From assembly GCA_051362555.1 (NCBI GenBank), contig CM120646.1:14818001-14882000 (forward strand): 64,000 nucleotides of DNA, written 5' to 3'. The notes under the pieces are model-generated. The model saw only the letters and a program-made list of their open reading frames with translations, did not search any database and was not told the origin of the DNA. Numbering within the stretch: the first letter of the stretch is position 1; every line of letters begins with the position of its first letter. Both the position numbers and the translations under genes were made by a program. Source of the DNA: Lingula anatina (taxonomy: Eukaryota > Animalia > Brachiopoda). This document shows positions 9,446 to 59,918 of the stretch, piece by piece.

Positions 9446-11225
9446 TTATGTCTCACTCTTAACATGAATGTCATCAGTTTCTACAGTTCCACTAAATATT
9501 TCATCAGTAGTAGGTAACTTGGTTATCTTGGGTCCCACACGGGTCCAGATAAAGCCCAAGTCTGGCTTAGTAGGTAGGGTGGGGTAAGGGGCCACCTTTG
9601 CACGAAAATAGTCCGAGGGAGCATGACATATAAAGTCCATACAGTCCAGGACTCTTGGGAGATCCTCCTCGGGACCTGAAATAACAACAACAAATTAATG
9701 AAAATATATTTAAGTCTAAAATTTAACGTCCAGCAGACTTCACATGAAAAGAGAAGTTATTTTAAATGTAATTGTTAAGATATCTAAAAAATTTTTTTTT
9801 AAATATTGTGATTTCAGATGAAAACAAGTTCTCGTGAGAGCTCTTTGCCACCTACCTAGAATGAAAGTAGCTGGGTCAAATTCATCTTTCTTGCTCTCTG
9901 TGGTAGGTAGCAGCCACGTGATCACAGCACTTTTCTGGGCAAACTGGTCTTGAAGGAAACCACGGATTTGAGCAAAGTAGATTCCCCCTCCATGATCCAT
10001 CAGTGAAACTATGTCCCCAACTTGCCAGTACATACCCTGAATTGAATTTTTATCTATTTATTTATATATTTAATTTTTTGCTCACACTTCCGTTGAATAT
10101 TGATTTTGATAGGGCATTTCCTTCTTCAATGAACAATATTCCAAGAGACTCCTTTAAAAAGTGCAGAGTGAAACACATAGCTATGAAATGAAGACAAGTA
10201 AAAATGAGCATTCACTGTAAAATTGTTATTAATTTGAATGCAAGGTTGCATAGTTCACTGTATTGATATGTTCTAACCTCAGTTACCCATCCGACAGACC
10301 CAGGTCAAACATGGGCCCTTGGGTAGCAACCTGTAAATATTTTGTTTTTGTCTTTTTCTTGTTACAAAACAGTTGTCAAATAACAAATGGTGTGCTTGCA
10401 AAAAAATGCTACTGTTAAAATCAATAACATGTCCTATTATAAAAAATATGTGCTACAGCAAATGTATGCAGAGCTTTTACCTTGAAGAAGATGTAATCAC
10501 TGGTAACAATGGTTGCTACTGATACAGCTGCTTTTATGGGCTGTGAATAGAAAAATGAATAGTATATGTCATACTTTGATGTCCAGTTAATATTACATAT
10601 CAATCAAAAGGTCCTGAAATGCAAATGTTAAGGAATACTTTCTGCCAACTGTATTTCAAAGTTTCAAAGAATCTTCATCCTGCCCTCATGATCTTAAAGC
10701 TAATACGCAGTCTACCCTTTTAAAGAAGCAATAGAACAGAAGAAACCAGAAGAAATTTATGCCACAAGATTTTTTGTTAGAAAAATCTTTAAATAACAAA
10801 ATAAGAGAACATGAGCTGAGAAGTGTTTGCTAAGTACTCACATTTTTCTTAAAAATAACCCTTCTATTTTTTCCCTTTGTCGCCAAAGATTTGGTCGAAT
10901 TTTGAACCCTGTTCTTCGACGGCTTTATTCTAGCACTCTTCCGAACACCTGTGTTATTACTGGTTGAAGTCTTTTCTTCTTTCACCTGTGTTCTGGAAGA
11001 GGTCGACGTTTCACGTTCACGTTCTGTGGAAGTGACCGGCATGTTCCCGTTACCAGCTGTCCCAGAGACCACCGACCCAGGCCCTGCGAGAAGGACCTCT
11101 TTCCCGCCGTTCAAAACCTTCAGTCCACAAGAATTACATAGCACTTCTCCCTGCGAATTCTTCCGCCACATTGTTGAAGTGTTTGTTTTGCATGTAGCAC
11201 ATAGTGGTTTTACCCCAAAAGGCAT
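9446..11225 (-). CDS. GATAD1: GATA zinc finger domain-containing protein 1
   Basis: Exons 11225-10842, 10540-10481, 10036-9856, 9675-9446. N-terminus MPFGVKPLCATCKTNTSTMWRK...LCNSC (GATA-type finger); C-terminal QVGDIVSL...YFAQIRGFLQDQFAQKSAVITWLLP...FDPATFILGPEEDLPR...FICHAPSDYF. Confidence 0.95.
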
Positions 11226-11411
11226 TTTTTCGGTTTAAAAATCTTGATTTTTCCCGAATTCTTTCAACAAGATTTCAGTTTTGTCTCATTATCGATGTGA
11301 AATTGATCGTTACTACGCGTCGATACTAAAGCTTACATCGTGCCAAGAAAATCCTATGTAATGCCGTCCTCGTGCTGCTATTAAATCGACTGCTCATTAG
11401 ATAAAAACGGC

Positions 11412-11456: not shown

Positions 11457-12720
11457 TTAAAATTTGTTTTCCAGCCCCAGTCAACTTACTAGCAATCTTC
11501 TATAAAATTTGATTTAAGTGCATTAACTTCCGCACTTTAAAAAAGAGAGAAATGAAAAAGACATCAAAATTGTCGCTGTACTTAAACTTGCTCACAGTTT
11601 CGTTGAATATTGATTTTGATATGGTATTTCCTTCTTCAATGAACTCTGCAAAAATGCGCGCGTGATAACAGACACGTTAATTCCCATTCACTGTGTTTTA
11701 CAACATCTACACGGCACCTGTTCAGATAGTCCGCCCCAGATAGCCATAGGGCCTATATACGAGGGTTTTCTAACGCAGATACCGTAGGCCATAACATGCA
11801 TGGTGGTTGAGTCGTTAAATTGAGCGTTCGTGCTCACAAATCTGAGGCTTGAGCTGGCAATTGATAGCTAATTCGTTTTTAAAACCTGATCTCGAGGTAC
11901 AGAGGGCACTGCGTATGTGGCTCGTACGTAGGCCTACTGGTAATTTTAAAACTCGCATATACTGATAAAGAACGGAATTTTTTTTAACTTAAAAAGCTTG
12001 TAACTTTTCACAAAGTCCAAGTCACAAAGTCAAGTAAATATTTATTAATTGTTTTAAATTACAAATTTTCGAGATTACGGCTCCAGAATACTAGCCAAAC
12101 TCACTGAATTCAGGGCGCATGCAGTGTGAGTGTGTGTGTATGATAACAAGTGGGGTCAAACTGATAACCTGTAGTATCGGGTGACAAATACCTAGTAGGC
12201 CTAGGCCTATTACATGTGTATATCCACGATATTTCCACTGAACAGGCAACGTGAAAGACAGTTCAGACAGCCAAGGTCGCGGTATGAATAGCCAGACGTT
12301 TCTACATGCACAGACAACCTCGAACGACAATGGATGGGTCAGATCAAGGACGCCCTTGAACTCTGAACTCTGAACAGTAAGACTCCAGAAAAACTGATTC
12401 TTGGGAAGACAGTCTGGACAGTGGGTGATGCTATAAACTCTACTGACATTACAAAGGTCGTTGTTGAATTGTTCAGACAGATGACAGATGACCGTTGCCA
12501 TATTGCAAGGTCACACTCGAAAGAAGTCCAGTTTAGTCCGATCACTTTGCATGAAAGTCAGCGGAAAGTGAGACCAGCCAGTGACATTCTAGACAAACAA
12601 GTTGACACAACTCTGCTGCATTAGCGATAGGAATATCCATTTTGTGTAAACACAGCGGTGACACACTGATAAATGTAGACCCCCTATCAGATAATACTTT
12701 TATAAAACAGGTTCAAGAAG

Positions 12721-15371
12721 ATGCCTGGTGATAAAGACGATGCTTTACATAATGGTGTGGCTGACGACGGGCTTCCTCCATCAATGAAAAATAGGACGAC
12801 GGAAAGCGTTTCCCTAGCAGGGGTCACTTCTACCTCAGAGGAGTTGAAAAAGGTGACTTTTGATAAATCACCACACGTTGAGACTTACACAGATACAATG
12901 GAAGTAAGCGAGATGACCAAAACCAATTTTTATACAGGGCCAACCGACAACGTGGTCTTGAGGACATTTCGCAATGCGCTCACATCAATCTGGGAATTCA
13001 TTACCGCTTTAGCTGCATTCCTCCTGCTACTGGTCCTTTTGCCAGTGCTTCTTCCGCTGTCTCTTAGTTTTCGCATATATAGACGGGTTGACGAACAGAT
13101 TATTAGATACAAAACAAATGGAGAAGCAGCGGTAAGGAATGGAAACATGTTATGTTATGTTATGTTATGTTATGTTATGTCAAAAAGAGCTGAATACAAT
13201 TTGCCCAATTAATGTATTGCTCAGCTATAGTTTTAACATGTGAAAATACAATGTAATATCATTCCAAGACATTTTTCGCTTTACTTTCCAATTTATTAAC
13301 TTTGCATAATCTCAGGTGGAGTTCTAATTTCAGGTGATAAAAGGCGTAGATTCGATATGGTTGCAAGACACACCGAACAACCGTGCCATCATAAATGCCA
13401 TCCTCGCTGCCAAGGGACAGGGTGACGTCATCAAGTGGAGAGAAATCTTGTTGAAAAAGTTTGTCTTAGCAAAGAACGATCAAGGGGAAATCCTCTTTCC
13501 AAAACTGAGGGAGTACCCCACCACATTGCTCCACAGGTACGAGTAAGACCCTCTGAGAGGTTTTGCGTCAGTTTTAAATTGCGTGGTTAGCAACTTAGAT
13601 ATTATATTTTAGTGTAGAGATGGGTTTAATACAAACTGGACGTCTATGATGATTTTCCTCAATAAGCGGTCAACAATTTGGACAGAACATCCGTGTCTGA
13701 AACATCCACTACAGGATAACCTTCAATGTGCGTATGAAGTCCCATGGAAAATTGTCTTTGTGCGCATACACTGCATGGAATATTTTTCAACGTTTTCATG
13801 ACATACAGTCATGGTAAGCTTAAGCAAAGCAGCAAAAGATTTGTAGGGCCCTTAAATATTTTATATGTATTTTACACATCTTTTTTTTTTTAATTTCAGA
13901 TACATATGGATGCCCGAAAAGGATTTTGACATAGCCAACCACGTGTATATGTATGATGGACTTCCCCTCAAAAACAAGAAAGACCTTGAAGAATGTGTTG
14001 GAAAATTAAGTCAGAGAGCATTTAAGAAGAGGCAGGCACAGTGGGAGGTTATTGTCATACCCCCAACGAAGGACGCAGGCGACACTTACTATGCTCTATT
14101 TCGCGCCCACCATTCTATTGCTGACGGCATTTCCTTCGTGAGAGCGTTCCTGCAAAACCTTGTGGACAATCCGCTCAAAGAAGAAGAAACAAAACGGTAC
14201 GCTTCGACTGTGTCTAAAACCTGGTTTACGATCGCGGCCATTTTTTTCGGACCGAAATTAGCGCTCCAGCGACTGGCGGCGGTTGGCGATCACAGTTGTC
14301 TGCACGGGCGGGAAATGTCCGGCGTGAAGCTGGTGACTTGGTCTGATCCCATCAGCCTAGCGTTAGTGAAAAAGATCAAAAATGCCACAAAAACAACAGT
14401 CAACGACGTCCTTATGTCTTGCATGGCGGGCGCTTTCACTGACTACTTTGCTTCTCGCAAAGAAATCCCACCGACACATTTGTTGACTACAATCCCCGTT
14501 GCCTTACAAGCAGCGTCGGAGGAAATCAGTCTCGAAAACCGTTTTTCCCTAGTTTTCCTACGTCTTCCTACCTCCATCTCAGATGACATAGAGCGTCTCC
14601 GAGTTACCAAACAGCGCATGGACGCAATCAAACGCACGCCAGAGCCCCTTGTGAATGAGTTTCTGATACGTTACAGCATGAGCCGTTTACCGGGCAGCCT
14701 CACGCGGCGGCTGTTTGACGGACTTGGAAGGAAATCTTCGATGATTTTATCCAACGTTCCTGGTCCTCAGCATCACATACAGATAGCTGGAAGTGAGGTC
14801 ACCATGATGACATTTTGGCCACCACAAAGAGCTAATGTTGGTGAGTGCCATTCATTCAACCATTCATCCACATATCCATCCATCTGTTTATATCTCTGCG
14901 TGTTATCTTTTCCCTTGGGGGGGTGGAATCAAAATTTTATAAATATGAGACCTTTTATCATCATATCTTATATTTTTGTATAATTTATTTTGTCTTTTTT
15001 TTCATTATTTCGTCTTTATTCTATTTGCGTTTTTTATCAGCTTCAATTCGTTTCATCACTACATGCATGTATTTGTGTTTAGTCCTATTCATTTCAATTT
15101 AGACTAATTTTGGGCCTGTGGATTGGTTTGATTGCAATATATTTTTTCCGGTCACATAAATTAATGTAGTTTATAGGCATTTCGTGTCTAAATTCCCGTT
15201 TTTTTCCACTCTTTTTCTCCTGCAGGCATTGGTATCTCCATCTTTAGTTATGCCGGTGACGTCATAGTTGGCGTGGAAGTGGACCAGGTTATCATGTCGG
15301 AACCACGAGAACTTACGAGATTTTTTAAAAGCCGTCTGCAGTCACTTGCCAGACAAACCAAAGTTGAATAA
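12721..15371 (+). CDS. Wax ester synthase / diacylglycerol O-acyltransferase (WS/DGAT family)
   Basis: Exons 12721-13131, 13334-13536, 13900-14840, 15226-15371. Catalytic HHSIADG (HHxxxDG), TVNDVLM, ILSNVPGP and GISIFSYAGDV motifs; an N-terminal hydrophobic segment (FITALAAFLLLLVLLPVLLPL). The start codon is less certain because an acceptor at 12710 implies an upstream exon. Confidence 0.92.
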
Positions 15372-18300: not shown

Positions 18301-19187
18301 ATTGCAAAAGAGGCTATCAAGTAACTTCGAAATTCTCTCAGTATCTGAGTAAATATTACGTTATCCTGAATGACGCCGTATCATCAACAACACAAGCTTA
18401 CATCAATATATAGCTGATTTATTTATTTATAGCGAATGCTGTATTAACACAGCTGATCCACGGATTATCTACATACAAAAGTGTTTGAACTAACATCACT
18501 AGAGAAAAAAACTGAGTCATTAAAGTTTGGATTAGTTTTCAATTTTGATTTTGCAACATGGTGAATATTCATTATAAATTTCCTCTTAAAATATATAGTA
18601 ATTGTACATAGAGATCATCAGTTTTTATCTTAAAATTAACTTAAAAGAGCTATTTACAGCGGTTCGTCTTTCTAATATGAATAAATTAAAGCAGTTGGCA
18701 TATTTCTCACATTTGGATATAACGATGCCGAACTCTGTTCTTTTCTTAATTCTTTCTAAAACACAATTGCCTAAGAGGAAACTCCCATTGCTGATGCATA
18801 GGGCAGATTCCTGCACGACCATTAAATTACCTACACACAGAGATTTGTTAAATAAAATGGAGTTAATATTTAAATAAATGAATATTTAAATGTCATTGCA
18901 CTGAAAACCAAAATTAATTGCATGTCTCTTGATTTATTGAAAGAAATAAAAAATCTAATTGAAAAAAAAAACTGACTGACTGGAAAAGAGTCTAGATCAT
19001 GCCTACTTAAAATGCATACTTTAAGTCCTCGCCATATGCTCAGTTCACACCGCCAGAGATATAGAAATCACAGACATTGACCAGAGTCACTGGTAAGAAG
19101 GGACACTGATCGCGAGACGGGAAATCGCGTGATGTTTGAAAGTCCCGAGATTTGCCACCCAGACTTGCCACGGACAGAGTTCATCAG

Positions 19188-21485
19188 TTAGCTATTTCTT
19201 TTGCCGAGAAAACGTGGTTTGTTTTGATTGCTCCTCTTGTCCGACGTTGACAATGCCATGTCATCCGAGGCTGCAGTGGTAGTGAGCTCGTCACGCTTTC
19301 CTAGAAAACTGGGTTTATTTCTGTCACTGGACTGAGAACGGAACATATTGTGCAAAAAGGCGGACATATCCCCGCTTTTCTTTCCAATAAATCTTGGCTT
19401 GTTTTTAGCATTTGAGTACGACCTGAACATGTTCTGTAGGTACGACCTAACGTCCCGTTTGCCGATAAATCTGGGCTTTTGACGATTACCCTGTTTGGCA
19501 CGAAACAGTTCCGACACGTAACTTTTCAAGTCTCTCTTGGACCGCGATTTGACGGCTCTTTTGCCGATAAAACCTGGCTTCTGGCGAGTGCTTGGTTTGG
19601 ACCGAAAAAACGACTGGACATAATCTTGCACGTCTCTCTTGCCGATGAACCTGGGTTTCTGTAGCGCGATATCCTGAGGGACGATGGTCTGGATGCCAGG
19701 TACTTCCACTTGTCTCTTCCCCAGGAATGCTGGGTTGTGTTTGCCCGCCGTCTGCGACCTCATCAGGTTTGCCAGATACGCTTGCATCCTGGAACCGCGT
19801 TTTTTAAAGAATCTGGGCCTCCTGGTTCCTTCGTCAACGCTAATCTGAGAGCTACCTGTCTCATGTTGGTTCCAATCCCGCTTACCCAAGAAGGCGGGGT
19901 TATTCCGGATTGAAGACCCAGGCCGGAACATGTTCAGCATGTAGGCCCGCACGCCTCCTTTGAAACGACGCTTTTCCGAGGCGTTCCTGTCATCCACGTC
20001 TTCTGAGTCGACGTTCAAATCACCGTCTACATTTTCATCCATGCCGTCTTTAGCGACATCGACTATAACGACGGGATCGTATGTCAGAAGCCACGATGCG
20101 ATGCCATCGGTGTCATCAGTATCGGGGGTTTTGACGAATATACCATACTCGACTGGTTCCCTTATGCCTTCGTCCGTCACATCTTTGCCTGAATTAAGAA
20201 AAATAAATAAATGAATATAACACTAAACCGGCACGTTTTTTTTTATCTTTTAATAATATCAAGTGATGTTTTAAGAGCATTGTTTGTACGTGGTGGTAAA
20301 ATTATGACGGCTGTATATTCCTAGATCTGATTCTTACGGAAACTTAAGAAAAAAAGAAAATCAAGTTTCATTCAAATATGTAAAGCATCTTAGCTATCCA
20401 TACAGATAATCGTAATTAGTAACGGTCATTTACATCAGAACAAAAAAAAAAATAAATAAATTGGCTTTAGTGAAAATTAAATAATTATAAACAACTCAGC
20501 CATTATACATATTACCAAAGTAATCAAATATATCTAGCTTTTAATATATTTGAACCGCCATGCAATCAACATCTGGCCGTAATGATTTAACGGGTGCATA
20601 AAGACAATAATTAAGCTATTAGCATAAATGAGGTCGTTTTATTTTACATCGAGAATAACTTCTCGTAGCGTTTTTTTTATTATCAAAAAAGCAGTAAACT
20701 GCGTTAAACGGGAACAAGAATATGCATGTAGCAAAGTTTGGAACCAATTTTTCATTCTTTTAATTACATCTGATACATTAAGTGTGGCATTTCTAAAATG
20801 TAATATGTATCCTTATATACATATAGTAGTAATTTAGATAGATAGTAATAGATAATAATTTTGAAAGTTTACGACATACTGTGAACGGATAAAGACAATA
20901 AGTTATATTTCAGTTAATACATTCTACATCATCTATCGTGGATAAACACGGACTTTAATTAATCATTTGATAAATGTTCACAATAAATGGCGGAATTAAT
21001 CACTGTTGATTTAACTGGGATTATGTTGTAGTCGTGAGCTAATTAAACTTAAACGTAGTTTAAGTTTGTATGGAATTTCAGTTTTAAAAACTACGTTTGC
21101 TCGTCAGCGGAAAGACTACGGATTGTTAACTTATTTCAGTTTACCTAAAATGAATGGCGCATACTCTATCTGTCATTGATTTTTAGCTATAAAGTGGATT
21201 TACATTATTTTGTAGATATGAATTAACTTTTCTAAGATATTTCTTATAATATACGTATGTAAAGATGAAGATTACACTGAATCAAAAGCACTGAAGAAAT
21301 ACTTTTAGAAATCGTACGACCAAGGCTCACAATTTATAGTATTAAAGAAAAGCTCCAACTGAAACTTTACTTATTTACTCACCAATTGCCTTTAAATCGG
21401 AGTCCGTATCTTTTTTCCGTAGAGCCGTACAATTTGCCATTACTGCCAGTAAGGAGAGGAGAGTCCATCCCTTCACGAGTGCCAT
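19188..21485 (-). CDS. Multi-copy neuropeptide precursor (~367 aa) yielding PxF[I/L]amide peptides
   Basis: Exon 1, 21485-21383, encodes signal peptide MALVKGWTLLSLLAVMANCTA. Exon 2, 20188-19188, joins in phase and has an acidic spacer followed by eight PxF[IL]-G-K[RK] amidation/cleavage sites. Confidence 0.92.
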
Positions 21486-21489
21486 CGCT

Positions 21490-21530
21490 AACTTGACGTT
21501 CTCAAGAACTGGCCGCGGCTTATATACAGA
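21490..21530 (-). promoter_or_regulatory. TATA box of the neuropeptide precursor gene
   Basis: Minus-strand gTATATAAg at ~21527-21520, with an Inr-like tcaagtt about 25-30 nt downstream, just before the ATG. Confidence 0.6.
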
Positions 21531-29266: not shown

Positions 29267-32200
29267 TTACTTCTTATTCAAAAGTTTTTCATTTTTGTCC
29301 AGACATTTGCAGAAGGCATCTGGGCAATAACTGGGTATATTAGAACAATTGATTTGGCACCAATAGTCTGCAAGAGGTGATTTAAACGTGGGTAAACCAA
29401 CGGCTTTGTAGCAATCCGGTTCTGCTGGAGTTGTTGGGGCCGGTGTAGTGGTAGTGGTATAATACCCCGGGAACACCTTCTCGCGACACGCGCACCATTG
29501 GTCATGCTTACGGCACCCATACCGGCTCCAGCAGTGGTTCTTGCAGTACTGCACAGAGTGGGCCGTGCCTCGCTGGTAAAGGAACGGTTCTGTTGGCCAC
29601 GGGTGACATGTGTCGTAGAGTTCATCTTTCAGACGCTCGGACACGGAGGCGCACATGCAATACCGGGTGTCACAAGAGTCAACGGTACACTGGTCGCGGC
29701 AAAAGAGCCAGGAGCCCGCGGTGTCTCGCTGACCTAGGCGCGGGATGCCCACACAGCCGGACTTGCTGTTCGGGTCGCTCATTTGGCTCTGAAACTGGCT
29801 CCATTGTTTCGAATCAGTGATGGCAACGTCAGCGCAGTTGATGAAGGTTTCCTGTTTGCCACATCCGCTGCATCCCTCACCAGTTTCGAAGTCGTAGTCC
29901 CAGTTGTTGCCTGTAATATTATTAAGTAAAATATATAACGGCAAAATTCAACACAATTCTACGAACTTATCAAAAGGAAGACCTATGAATGTTTTGTTTC
30001 AGTCAGGCGTGTGGTCACACCCATGCATTTTTCTGAGTCACATTGAATGTTTTCATTTTATAGGCATGTTTGGCATATCATCACACTCGAGTTCTCATTG
30101 TCACGCTCAAAACATTTTTCATCCTGTTCTTACTTCCAAATAAGTTTTATCGGCACAAACTTCGTGGGACTAATAGGGTTTGCTTAAGCCTGTTTAAGCA
30201 TGTTTAACAAAATAAGTGTAGCCCGAAAATTGGCCAAATGTTTAAACCACAATTTCAGTCTATTTGACAAGATGAATGAGTGTAGTTCAATGACATGGGA
30301 TATAGCGCTTGTTGTATTAGACCATATCTAATGTTTTAGACCAACACTTTTATTTACCAGGGATAGTACGAAATTTTTTGACTAAATCTTCAGACCAATT
30401 TTAAGTTCATTTGTGAATCAACAATCAGGTGGCCCGTTGCGGCAGTTCGTACCGGGAAAGATTGCCAAATCTTGAAATAAAAACACGACTTTTGACTAAA
30501 GCGAAGCTGACTGGCAAACGAAGCACCAGCTACCAAAGGCCAGCCAGTAAACTTGTGCAAAACTTCTCGCTGGACAGTACAGAAAAGTTCATTACAGAAT
30601 TAGCCAGAGAAATTTCCGTGCATATCTAGTGGAAAATCAATCTGTGGACTTGGTGGATGGAAGTCACGAGGTGCGTGCACTGCCAAACCACAACACGGCA
30701 TTGAAAATGTTCTATTAACGCCATCCAATTAGCGATTAATTCTAACAGATGAAGTTATTATGCGATGATGGCAATAAAGGATTATCTTATAGCCTAGGAC
30801 GTCTTATGATCGTCCAGACATAGATATGATAAAACATCCCTTTATAACATATTCGCTGAGGTACAATGAGGTTAAAGCACAATAAACACACCCTTGCTTA
30901 GATCAAGGGAGGACCAAATCTCTTACGTGCCCCAAAAACATATACTACTAATCAGAGAGGCATAAGCATGCCCTTGGCAAAATGTTAAGTTTGCAGCAAT
31001 ATTGCAGCAATACTACTGCAAACTAAAAGTTTGCGGCAACGATTTTACAGAAGTTTACATGAAACATTTTATTGCTGCTAATTTGCTGTAATATGGCGGC
31101 AAATTTGCAAGAAGGAACAGCAGTTTCCAACAAATTTGCTACAAATATGCAGCAGGTCTGATATCTTGCTAAGGTAGGCAACAGTTACAGGATCTGACTA
31201 ATGCCATGGCAGATATCGAGAGCAAAATATCATAAGTATCATTCATGACGTATGCCTATAAATTCCATATACTTTCTATTAGAAATCTTCCAGCAGTTGC
31301 GAAATTATATTGAAGTCTTTCATGTATCCGCCAGAAGATCTGTTGTAAGGAGCACAAGATACACCTTATCTTATGCTTTTGTTCTGTACATTCGCCGTGG
31401 TTTAAAGTGGCATCCACTTGTATTTTTCACTCTTGTTGAGGAGTGGAGCTACTCGGCGAATACCGAAAACAAAAGACTCGGGTAAGGAATAACCCACGTT
31501 GATTTTTAACGCCCCCGTGCGTGCGTTTGATGTATTCATAATTGCATGTACTGTGACTCTACTTACGTCCTCTATGAACACGTACTGTTATTTCCTCAGC
31601 ATGGATGATTTGGTAAAACTTATCTTCCATAGGCTCTACGCATGCTGTATTTACCAAAACAATAAACACCCAAGCAAAATCTACTTAACATTAGAAACAG
31701 TCATTTCAAATTGCGTGATTACGTCAAAGGCGTGTCACTTGCGTTGAGAAGTGCGACGATCACATCTGGCGAAAATAAGTTTGCAATCATGAAGGAAATG
31801 ATGCAGGGATCCTCAACATGTTACAGGCCCACTCACAAAAATACCCCCACAATTTGAAAGAAAAATGGTCACGTTTAATAAAGTACTAAATATTATTATT
31901 AGTAGTAATATTTTGATACTTACAGATGGAAGGTACACTTAAAACACTACAAATTGTTATAATTCTAAAAATGAAAACGAGAACATTTGAGTTAACGGGT
32001 ACATTCTAAAATAAATTTCCAAAACCTGATTTTAAACTGAAATGTAGCAGATACCTACATTTTGTAAAATCGTAAAATTAAACAAAAGTTGACAGTATTC
32101 AGTGAAAAGTGTATGAGGATTTTGCAGTTTTGGCACTTTCAATTTCTGAGCATTTCGTTGTTTATAAAATTGTTCGCTTTGTTTTGGTAAAAGATGTGGT

Positions 32201-43475: not shown

Positions 43476-43943
43476 TTAGAAATTGAATCCATTGCGTTCC
43501 GCCGTCCACCTGTAGGCCCAGTGGCTGCGTTTTGGAATCGCCCTTACGTTCTCAGCTGTGCGGGGACGCTGTAAATAGGTTAGCGGTGCCTCTGGCTTCT
43601 TACTCCCAGTGTTGTATAGGCCTACTGCCGCCCTCACCTCAGGTTCTGTTGCGACATACGAGTATACCAAGCACATACATGGTGATGCAATATCACTGGC
43701 TTTAGCTGTATACATTTCCCCTGGTATATAAAAAGTATCTTTGGCGTTGGCGATTTGTACACGTGCGTTATGCATGTCACACACGCAAGTAGAAATGCCT
43801 GTACCGTCATCTTGGTAAGGAACATGGCGTGGGGATCGTTTGCCGAACAATATCGAGGGCAGGTACGGATGAGGGACGCGTGCCTCCTTACTGGATACCA
43901 TAGAAACTGTGACCAGTACAAATGATATGGATAAGATGTTCAT
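43476..43943 (-). CDS. Secreted neuropeptide-like precursor (155 aa) with one ...PSILFamide peptide and a Cys-containing C-terminal part
   Basis: Signal peptide MNILSISFVLVTVSMVSS is followed immediately by KEARVPHPYLPSILF-GKR, then CVC and CMC motifs and a second KR site. A splice acceptor lies 21 nt upstream of the ATG. Confidence 0.8.
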   Translation of the reverse strand: MNILSISFVLVTVSMVSSKEARVPHPYLPSILFGKRSPRHVPYQDDGTGISTCVCDMHNARVQIANAKDTFYIPGEMYTAKASDIASPCMCLVYSYVATEPEVRAAVGLYNTGSKKPEAPLTYLQRPRTAENVRAIPKRSHWAYRWTAERNGFNF

Positions 43944-51340: not shown

Positions 51341-55426
<4,086 letters not shown>

Positions 55427-57796: not shown

Positions 57797-58275
57797 ATCA
57801 ATGGGGGTAGGGAGGAGGCAAGAATGTAGCCAACTTCATGATTCATGAAGGGAAGTCACGCCAAAGTGACGTCAGACTTTGCTGTATCTTCTTTTGAAGT
57901 TTTCCTCAATGCCAACACCGGTGTAACGTGACAGGAAATCCCCCATAACAGAGTGTCCGCTTCCCATTCATTTGCACAGGTAAGCCTCGCCCTAGATTTT
58001 GACCCACTTATGCCAGACTAACCCTAACCATTATAACTATATGGAGGGCGGACTTTCTGTTACACGGACCTTCAGTTTCGTTACAACCTTGTTGAAGTGA
58101 GGTCACATACAGCCTTAAGAGTTTCCAACACAACCTGGTGTGGGATCTTACCTGGACAAGGCTGAAAACACAGGCAAAAGTCAAGGTTACTCTCTCACTA
58201 GTATTTCCTGTTTTCATTTATCTTTTTACATTTCCAGACCCTCAGCCCTATGCAGGTCACCTGTATACTGGCAAG

Positions 58276-59918
58276 ATGTCAGGAGCGCTAGCCAGGGCAG
58301 CGTTCTACCCCACTCTTCTGTATAATGTGGTGATGGAGAAAGTAACATCACGGAGGTGGTACGACAGAATAGACAGCCGTGTCCTACTGGGAGCATTGCC
58401 ATTTAAACGCATGTCAGAGAGGGTGAGAAGTCTTTCTCTCTCTTTCCCCCCTAGCTCTCTCTAAAAGTTATTGATACATACAGTATTCAAATTGTAAAAT
58501 TGTAGAGAAATAATCTCCCTCCCTCTCTCTCTCTCTCTGAAACTTATTTTGAAATTCTAAAACATTAAATGTTAACCATATGCATGTTAATAACATTCAT
58601 TGTAGATGTCAAAGGTCCCTTTAAACAACTAGAGTTACTGAAACTAAATTTCAGGGCTGAAAGTTTTCTTTTTCAGCTTGTAGAAGAAGAAGATGTGAAA
58701 AGAGTGATAACAATGAATGAAAACTATGAAACGAGGTACCTCTGCAATAGTTCCAAGGTAATAATTAAAAAAAGCAAAAGAAAAAATGAAATGAAGAAAT
58801 ATGCTAAAAATTATTAATAAAAATAATATTAGTGATGATGATAATAAGAATGATTATTTTAATAATAATTGTAAGTCATTCCACAGCATATCTGGTAAAC
58901 AGTGACAAACATTTCAAATTATTTAAAATCCAAAGAGATAGATAATAAAGTATACATATATATGTAAAAGCACAACCATAAAGGTCTTTTAAGATTTTGG
59001 AACAGGACGGAATTCCATTTTGATAATTACTTTACAATTTTATATGGAACATTTGATGACAACACACGAGTATTTTTCTAGAGTCTCAATTAATGTTGAC
59101 ATGTAGATACATTTGTTGATCCATAGTACAGTTTATGTTAGGGGAATGGCATGACCTACACTGAATTGCATGTAATTCCCTACTATTTCTTGTGGTGCAG
59201 GGATGGCAAAAGTTAGGGGTGGAGCAGCTACGCCTCAGTACCACCGACCTGACCCCACCTTCTGTGCAGGACTTGACCAAAGGTGTGAATTTTATTCTGG
59301 ATACACCTGAGGGAAGTGTGTATGTGCACTGCAAGGCTGGGAGGTCACGGAGTGCAACTCTGGTGGCTTGTTATCTCATGAAGGTAAAATCTTCACTTGG
59401 AAGATTAATACTTCACGTGCAGGGGTTTCCCCAGGGTTTGGAGTACAGGGAATCCAACTACAAATATACTGCGATTCCCAAAAAATTTCATAGTGATCTT
59501 CAAAAATATGGGCTCTCTTTTGAGCCCTGTGACCACTAAAATGATGGCTGGATGGCTTTCTAGAAAAAGTCTTGTTCACATATCAAGTAACAAATGATTC
59601 AGAATCAAAATGATATCTGATTTTTGAGGATTTTTTTTTTTTTTTTTTTTTTTAATGATTTCAAAGTCGGTTGTAATTGGACAAAACATGTTTTAATTTA
59701 ATATAATATTTGATATTTATGTTAATTTTACTCTTTATTTATTCTGTCATGTATTTATTTTTCTTTTTTTATGATGATTTATTCATATTAAACTTCAGGT
59801 CCACAACTGGAGTCCCGAAGAAGCTGTAAGTTTCATCAAAGACAAAAGGCCTCATGTCATGATCCTTCCGTCTCACTATGAAGTACTCAGGACTTTTCAG
59901 CAAACTCTCTCAGACTAA
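58276..59918 (+). CDS. PTPMT1: Mitochondrial phosphatidylglycerophosphatase / protein-tyrosine phosphatase 1
   Basis: Exons 58276-58422, 58677-58757, 59201-59383, 59799-59918. [13 protein letters not shown]...RRWYDRID...[14 protein letters not shown] and the active site [20 protein letters not shown]. Confidence 0.96.

What the first reader, a model, noticed from the sequence alone, without database searches (positions are those of the whole stretch)
19188..21485. Multi-copy neuropeptide precursor with long helical PxF[IL]amide peptides of unclear family
Seen: a signal peptide, an acidic spacer and eight amidated peptides bounded by dibasic sites. Five share a 23-26 aa architecture: FKGGVRAYMLNMFRPGSSIRNNPAFLa, GSRMQAYLANLMRSQTAGKHNPAFLa, DVQDYVQSFFRSKPSTRQKPGFIa, DLKSYVSELFRAKQGNRQKPRFIa, DVRSYLQNMFRSYSNAKNKPRFIa; SGDMSAFLHNMFRSQSSDRNKPSFLa is a sixth variant. 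Known: the C-terminus resembles molluscan Mytilus inhibitory peptides (PxFVamide), but those are short peptides. Inference: the conserved N-terminal block [VLM]xx[YF][LVM]xx[MLF][FM]R implies a long bioactive form, possibly a lineage-specific or undescribed signalling system.
Basis: partly seen in the sequence, partly recalled or inferred. Interest (0 to 1): 0.85.

Follow-up and report, generated by a model that had tools for sequence, protein, structure and literature searches.

The report
Lamp-shell neuropeptide precursor with long repeats
This is an already catalogued neuropeptide gene of the lamp shell Lingula, but six of its eight peptides carry a conserved extension, predicted to be a helix, that its relatives lack and that likely stays on the mature signal.

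Summary
In detail: a two-exon, minus-strand gene for a 367-aa precursor with eight amidation sites. It is not undescribed. It matches Lingula anatina XP_013405700, 'MIP-related peptides', at 363 of 367 residues. It is filed as an F[V/L/I]amide precursor in the Thiel 2021 supplement and is also in the De Oliveira 2019 supplement.

The architecture remains unusual. Six units share one register: an 11-residue block, exactly five linker residues, a basic residue, then a hexapeptide ending PxF[IL]amide. Synonymous sites between units are at chance level. In a divergent run (X10), block plus linker show 7 synonymous and 1 replacement codons. So the extension is under purifying selection.

None of the other 36 catalogued family entries shows such repeats (read by eye). 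Whether long peptides or hexapeptides cut at a single basic residue are released is untested; I favour long forms at about 60%. NPF membership and a shared EFLGamide exon were tested and not met. Known gene, unremarked variant architecture.

The parts
21383..21485 (-). Coding exon 1: start codon, likely signal peptide (about residues 1-21) and start of the pro-region
   Evidence: matches the N-terminus of P0003
20189..21382 (-). Intron, 1194 nt, phase 1, GT..AG with pyrimidine tract
   Evidence: junction present in P0003 and in the transcriptome entry; no junction read
19188..20188 (-). Coding exon 2 with all peptide units and the stop codon
19974..20188 (-). Acidic pro-region (exon 2 part)
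   Evidence: 29% D/E over the whole pro-region; 6-nt in-frame gap in run X10 near 19983
19884..19964 (-). Long unit 1, 26 aa plus Gly
19806..19817 (-). Relic four-residue unit without the amide-donor Gly
   Evidence: one replacement in X10
19719..19796 (-). Long unit 2, 25 aa plus Gly
19641..19712 (-). 23-aa amidated unit without the conserved block; N-terminal part variable
   Evidence: 4 synonymous and 5 replacement codons in X10
19563..19634 (-). Long unit 3, 23 aa plus Gly
19461..19532 (-). Long unit 4, 23 aa plus Gly
19383..19454 (-). Long unit 5, 23 aa plus Gly
19299..19376 (-). Long unit 6, 25 aa plus Gly
19233..19298 (-). Acidic spacer with flanking dibasic sites, weakly constrained
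   Evidence: 1 synonymous and 5 replacement codons in X10
19203..19232 (-). Short 9-aa amidated unit plus Gly
18705..19187 (-). Probable 3' untranslated region (AATAAA at 18938 and, further on, 18427)
   Evidence: a few RNA reads of run X12
21494..21526 (-). TATA-like box (from 21526) and CRE-like hexamer (from 21499) just upstream of the start codon; untested
   Evidence: pattern match only

Best explanation
The locus encodes the Lingula F[V/L/I]amide neuropeptide precursor, which is likely cut at its dibasic sites and amidated to give eight peptides, six of which likely stay 23-26 residues long with a predicted amphipathic helix joined by five residues to a PxF[IL]amide tail. Shown: gene structure, family-type tails, the fixed register of six units, and purifying selection on block, linker and tail. 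Inferred from standard prohormone biology: secretion, convertase cleavage, amidation and action on a GPCR. Inferred from the conservation pattern: the long form is the mature ligand. The tail would be the receptor-activating part, as in the short family members. The helix would add affinity, selectivity or lifetime, as the helical half of NPY/NPF does (analogy from my own knowledge, not homology). By analogy with molluscan MIPs the action would be on muscle or neurons.
For: Identity: 99% to XP_013405700 (4 differences in 367); catalogued as F[V/L/I]amide. The next hits are multi-copy FV/FI/FL-amide precursors, two of them named MIP or MIP-like (E 4.8e-9 to 5.4e-4). A nemertean entry in the same catalogue carries short peptides with the same basic-P-x-F-[IL] tails (Tubulanus comp26466). 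Selection: among same-residue codon pairs between blocks, 22 of 62 are identical against 24.6 expected by chance, while amino-acid identity is 40% and second-position identity 70%. In run X10 (72 differences over about 1080 nt), long units 2-6 show 11 synonymous and 1 conservative replacement codon, against 9 and 10 in the comparison segments (Fisher p = 0.02, grouping chosen after seeing the data). Block plus linker alone show 7 and 1 against a neutral expectation of 79% replacements (p = 1e-4, simple site counting). The linkers have 0 replacements in about 57 sites, against about 0.09-0.10 per site in two comparison segments. Linker length is 5 in 6 of 6 units. The upstream Arg lies at an odd spacing from the second basic residue, which does not fit the even-spacing convertase rule (rule recalled). 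Helices are predicted on every block modelled.
Against: No peptide has been observed. A basic residue precedes the hexapeptide in 6 of 6 units, the size of typical MIPs. The Aplysia MIP-related precursor has single Arg residues before its short units inside long inter-dibasic stretches. Nemertean mass spectrometry shows monobasic cuts with a second basic residue 3-6 positions upstream, which this spacing may satisfy. Selection on the block would also be seen if it were released as a separate peptide. Amphipathicity is marginal (p = 0.055) and the models are of modest confidence. The X10 table showed 40 of 74 rows, so unit 1 and the pro-region were not assessed. The short segment at 19533-19562 also had no replacement (4 synonymous, 0 replacement). 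No orthologue with long units was found outside this species. RNA reads were very few (11, 2, 0, 2) and the tissues are unknown, so neural expression is not shown.
Confidence: 0.6

Rival explanations
1. Two-step processing: each long unit is an intermediate that is cut again at the single basic residue, releasing an ordinary MIP-sized hexapeptide amide. The conserved block plus linker is a co-released non-amidated peptide or a sorting/processing element.
For: Lys/Arg before the hexapeptide in 6 of 6 units. The unnamed precursor P0013 has one unit with a similar block and a single Arg before its hexapeptide. Single-Arg sites precede short units in the Aplysia precursor and in 2 of 22 units of Deroceras MIP2. 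Monobasic cuts are reported in a nemertean. Similar helix-pattern segments occur in pro-regions of other MIP-like precursors away from any amide (P0016 p = 0.0003, P0011 p = 0.034 against shuffles; 2 of 8 proteins under 0.05).
Against: Two of the six sites are Lys and the spacing to the upstream Arg is odd (recalled rules disfavour both). Linker length and sequence are fixed across lineages. The two amidated units without the block also lack a basic residue directly before the hexapeptide, so they are predicted to be released longer than six residues.
Confidence: 0.3
2. The long cationic amphipathic amides act on microbial membranes as host-defence peptides in addition to, or instead of, signalling.
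For: The units are basic (net charge about +1 to +4 for the mature forms), 30-44% hydrophobic and amidated; helices are predicted.
Against: The tails match a neuropeptide family exactly. The units are under strong purifying selection, not diversifying. Transcript counts were very low in four RNA runs of unknown tissue. Two of the six units carry only +1 or +2.
Confidence: 0.05
3. The long units derive from, or mimic, the helical C-terminal half of NPY/NPF and act on an NPF-type receptor.
For: By eye, the hydrophobic i, i+3, i+4, i+7 pattern and the basic-P-x-F end resemble phoronid and brachiopod NPY/F entries, one residue out of register.
Against: No Pfam hit for any of 7 units at E up to 10. 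No PDB hit for the unit profile, and no NPY-family chain among 4 chance hits for the longer profile. There is no polyproline N-terminus, no RFamide end and no conserved Tyr pair. Lingula has three separate NPY/F entries. The same helix pattern is seen in NKY2 pro-regions, so it is generic.
Confidence: 0.05

Closest known systems
Lingula anatina XP_013405700.1 / UniRef A0A1S3J5N1 = comp137267 (Thiel et al. 2021, PMC8557429 supplement) = lingulaAnatina.g13688.t1 (De Oliveira et al. 2019, PMC6425005 supplement)
   Same: The same gene: 367 aa, 363 identical residues, same exon junction and same units.
   Different: Four substitutions outside the peptides. The passages and sections I read do not comment on the long units.
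Lophotrochozoan F[V/L/I]amide precursors (nemertean, brachiopod, phoronid, annelid)
   Same: Signal peptide, multiple Gly-dibasic paracopies and F[IL]amide ends; nearly identical basic-P-x-F-[IL] tails in Tubulanus comp26466.
   Different: Other entries release short peptides straight after dibasic sites; none of the other 36 entries read shows repeated long block-linker-tail units (by eye; one entry cut at 400 letters).
Molluscan Mytilus inhibitory peptides / PxFVamide precursors (Deroceras MIP2 ARS01373, Dreissena MIP-like, Aplysia NP_001191614)
   Same: PxF-aliphatic-amide tails; best non-self hits; some units are preceded by a single Arg.
   Different: Their units are mostly six residues directly after a dibasic site and end mainly in Val. 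Spacers are acidic and variable, not a conserved block in register.
Unnamed precursor P0013 / P0018 (ENA)
   Same: Its first amidated unit has a block fitting the widened motif, a single Arg and a PxFV hexapeptide; BLASTP aligns it with long unit 1.
   Different: One copy only, with a 10-residue linker. Significance is borderline: p = 0.004 with a motif widened after seeing it, p = 0.053 with the profile. No relatives found for that region.
NPY/NPF
   Same: Predicted amphipathic helix followed by a basic-Pro-x-Phe end.
   Different: NPF is single-copy, has a polyproline N-terminus and ends in RFamide; no profile match.

Membership tests
Lophotrochozoan F[V/L/I]amide precursors | N-terminal signal peptide | tested here: met
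   Hydrophobic stretch over about residues 1-21; hydropathy only
Lophotrochozoan F[V/L/I]amide precursors | Multiple paracopies, each ending in Gly plus a dibasic site | tested here: met
   8 units
Lophotrochozoan F[V/L/I]amide precursors | C-terminal F[V/L/I]amide | tested here: met
   8 of 8 end PxF[IL]G
Lophotrochozoan F[V/L/I]amide precursors | Sequence similarity to family members and published assignment | tested here: met
   8 of 8 non-self hits are multi-copy FV/FI/FL-amide precursors; filed under this name. Similarity is driven by the repeats.
Lophotrochozoan F[V/L/I]amide precursors | Processed amidated peptides in neural tissue and a cognate receptor | not testable with these tools
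   No peptidomics; receptor identity for the group is itself open
Molluscan MIP / PxFVamide in the strict sense | Short (about six-residue) units directly after dibasic sites | tested here: not met
   7 of 8 units are 23-26 aa between dibasic sites; short forms would need monobasic cuts
Molluscan MIP / PxFVamide in the strict sense | Terminal Val in PxFVamide | tested here: not met
   0 of 8 end in Val; 4 Ile and 4 Leu
Molluscan MIP / PxFVamide in the strict sense | Inhibition of muscle contraction | not testable with these tools
   Activity of MIPs as summarised in PMC6425005
FVamide/MIP locus shared with EFLGamide/fulicin by alternative splicing | Alternative exon encoding E-F-[LV]amide peptides in the same gene | tested here: not met
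   No such motif and no further amidated units on the minus strand of the intron or downstream to position 1; only exon 2 has a long frame after a phase-1 acceptor; feature described
NPY/NPF | Single peptide after the signal peptide with a polyproline N-terminus | tested here: not met
NPY/NPF | C-terminal RPRFamide-type end | tested here: not met
   All units have an extra Ile or Leu after Phe
NPY/NPF | Profile similarity | tested here: not met
   Pfam 0 of 7 units; PDB none; short queries have low power
NPY/NPF | Amphipathic helix before the C-terminal motif | tested here: inconclusive
   Predicted; moment p = 0.055

The most novel reading that the evidence does not exclude
Lingulid brachiopods have turned a short-peptide family into a set of long helix-linker-amide ligands, converging on the NPY/NPF design. 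These act through a receptor that reads the helix, perhaps among the brachiopod relatives of the annelid FLamide receptor. A single ancestral long unit may survive in other lophotrochozoan FVamide precursors such as P0013.
Probability: 0.3. Interest if true: 0.6.

Novelty: already known. Interest (0 to 1): 0.3.

Why it matters
The gene itself is catalogued, so finding it adds little. The unremarked point is that selection keeps a roughly 17-residue extension on six paracopies, in a family whose members are otherwise short. The receptor for F[V/L/I]amide and PxFVamide peptides is an open question in the papers read, and brachiopods are among the few groups with candidate orthologues of the annelid FLamide receptor. 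Any receptor screen in Lingula should therefore test both the long forms and the hexapeptides. A long mature form would be a clean case of a short neuropeptide family gaining a structured second domain.

Tried and rejected
No whole genome is held for this window, so paralogues and receptors could not be searched genome-wide.

Pfam on exon 2 gave one spurious hit below cut-off, and on the single units none of 7. PDB profile searches gave none and four chance hits at E of 1 or more. The ESM Atlas returned unrelated neuropeptide precursor clusters at 0.83-0.91 and no structural match above TM 0.38: the generic class only.

Searches for long-unit relatives found 3 proteins among 1262 candidates, 9 in the representative library, and only self among 1241 candidates with a two-unit profile. 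The P0013 region found only itself among 105 candidates. These searches are weak for short motifs and do not prove absence.

The run search listed no RNA holder (no evidence either way). Run X11 (another organism label) did not cover the exon. An alternative EFLGamide/fulicin exon was looked for and not found. The NPF resemblance was tested and not supported. The gastropod MIP segment ending in a Phe-Arg-Arg site was considered as a homologue of the block, but it was not the best-scoring segment in any of the 3 precursors that carry it.

The Aplysia MIP processing paper (Fujisawa 1999) is not held, so its processing results are recalled, not read. The earlier-findings index returned nothing. 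One paper search was swamped by unrelated abbreviations.

Full report
Observation. The region 19188-21485 holds a two-exon gene on the minus strand: exon 1 CDS 21485-21383, a 1194-nt phase-1 GT..AG intron, and exon 2 CDS 20188-19188, giving 367 aa without internal stops. The protein has a hydrophobic N-terminus, a pro-region with 29% Asp/Glu and eight segments ending in PxF[IL]-Gly before a dibasic pair. A six-frame scan of the window found this kind of end eight times in exon 2 and once elsewhere, without the Pro, so it is not chance.

Identity. The exon 2 product matches P0003 at 99%, which is XP_013405700.1, 'MIP-related peptides' of the brachiopod Lingula anatina. My spliced model differs at 4 of 367 residues, none inside an amidated unit. 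The same precursor is listed as F[V/L/I]amide comp137267 in the supplement of Thiel et al. 2021 (PMC8557429) and as g13688.t1 in supplementary files 3 and 4 of De Oliveira et al. 2019 (PMC6425005, where I saw the entry but not its family heading). The eight other proteins in the representative search are multi-copy FV/FI/FL-amide precursors; two are named MIP or MIP-like. A nemertean entry carries short peptides with the same basic-P-x-F-[IL] tails. Raw RNA reads were few: 11, 2, 0 and 2 in four runs of about 8-12 million records each, lying mainly on exon 2 and the 3' region, with no junction read. The splice rests on the RefSeq and transcriptome proteins.

Anatomy of the long units. Six units align without gaps: an 11-residue block with hydrophobic residues at i, i+3, i+4, i+7 and i+8 ending in an invariant Arg, exactly five linker residues, a Lys or Arg, then a hexapeptide [QNH][KN]PxF[IL] and Gly. 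AlphaFold places a helix on each block modelled (3 of 3, mean pLDDT 61; 2 of 2, mean pLDDT 67). The averaged hydrophobic moment peaks at 100 degrees with p = 0.055, and 2 of 6 single blocks pass 0.05. The helix is therefore likely but not shown.

Selection. Between units, synonymous positions are at chance level (22 of 62 identical codons against 24.6 expected) while the residues are conserved, so the likeness is not recent duplication. Run X10, labelled as the same organism, holds a contig with 72 differences over about 1080 nt. The table showed 40 of 74 rows, covering 19167-19808. In that interval long units 2-6 have 11 synonymous codons and 1 conservative replacement; the comparison segments have 9 and 10 (p = 0.02, grouping post hoc). 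Split further: block 6 and 1, linker 1 and 0, basic residue plus tail 4 and 0. Block plus linker departs from the neutral 79% replacement share at p = 1e-4 (no correction for mutation bias). Against this reading, one short comparison segment also had no replacement, and unit 1 was not covered.

Mechanism. Secretion, dibasic cleavage and amidation follow from standard prohormone biology (own knowledge). The open step is whether the unit is cut again. For long forms: fixed linker length, unchanged linkers across lineages, two of six candidate sites being Lys, and odd spacing of the two basic residues (convertase rules recalled). For short forms: a basic residue before the hexapeptide in 6 of 6 units, single-Arg sites before short units in the Aplysia precursor, and monobasic cuts with a second basic residue 3-6 positions upstream in nemertean mass spectrometry. 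I put long forms at about 0.6 and the two-step route at 0.3. In the first case the tail would activate a GPCR and the helix would tune binding or lifetime. Receptors for this group are unsettled: PxFVamide receptors were called unknown in 2018, and orthologues of the annelid FLamide receptor were found only in brachiopods. MIPs inhibit muscle in molluscs; the same action here is analogy.

Comparison. It meets the tested features of the broad F[V/L/I]amide group but not those of molluscan MIP in the strict sense (short units, terminal Val). It is not the FVamide/EFLGamide shared locus and not an NPY/NPF. Of 37 F[V/L/I]amide entries in the Thiel list (3 phoronid, 17 brachiopod, 17 nemertean), none of the other 36 shows repeated long units by eye, and no Glottidia orthologue is listed; transcriptome lists cannot prove absence. 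One unnamed precursor, P0013, has a single unit of similar layout at borderline significance. Helix-pattern segments also occur in pro-regions of other MIP-like precursors (2 of 8 under p 0.05), so the block alone may be a generic amphipathic motif.

Literature seen. PMC8557429: passages, sections 5, 6 and 16, supplement parts 12, 13, 19 and 258 of 386, and word searches. PMC6425005: passages and a supplement word search (files 2 and 3 cut when stored). PMC8398477: passages and section 17. PMC6188537, PMC4200219, PMC5996578, PMC9400282, PMC9396074, PMC13329902 and PMC3594158: passages only. Fujisawa 1999: not held, recalled. I found no comment on the long units in searches, and 'helix' and 'helical' do not occur in the Thiel main text. 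Subscription journals and unread supplement parts may hold such a comment.

Verdict. A real, catalogued neuropeptide precursor of a known family. Its one unremarked feature is a selected, probably helical extension on six paracopies, whose fate in the mature peptide is directly testable. Interest 0.3.

Noticed in passing
window 43479-43943, minus strand: Open frame from a start codon at 43943 with a signal-peptide-like N-terminus, followed by one Gly-Lys-Arg amidation site near 43850 after a Pro-rich decapeptide ending Leu-Phe, then a Cys-containing remainder. No Pfam hit and not found by three word searches in the Thiel 2021 supplement. Possibly an uncatalogued neuropeptide or secreted protein.
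   Followed up: partly
window 29267-29947, minus strand: Cys-rich exon with a Thr/Pro linker, resembling a secreted carbohydrate-binding protein by eye; no Pfam hit at E up to 0.1.
   Followed up: partly
window 10830-11234 (-), 12706-14983 (+), 54606-54983 (-), 58096-59539 (+): Neighbouring exons for a GATA zinc finger, a WS/DGAT acyltransferase, an electron transfer flavoprotein and a dual-specificity phosphatase; useful as synteny markers.
   Followed up: partly
run X10 on window 19120-20202: A run with the same organism label differs at 72 places plus a 6-nt gap over about 1080 nt, against about 1% for run X7. This suggests a deeply divergent lineage under one species label.
   Followed up: no
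P0016 residues 127-137; P0011 residues 267-277: Pro-regions of gastropod MIP-like precursors hold segments that score well against the block profile (p = 0.0003 and 0.034) but are not next to an amidated tail.
   Followed up: partly
window 19806-19817: A relic peptide unit that lacks the amide-donor Gly and is changing between lineages.
   Followed up: partly
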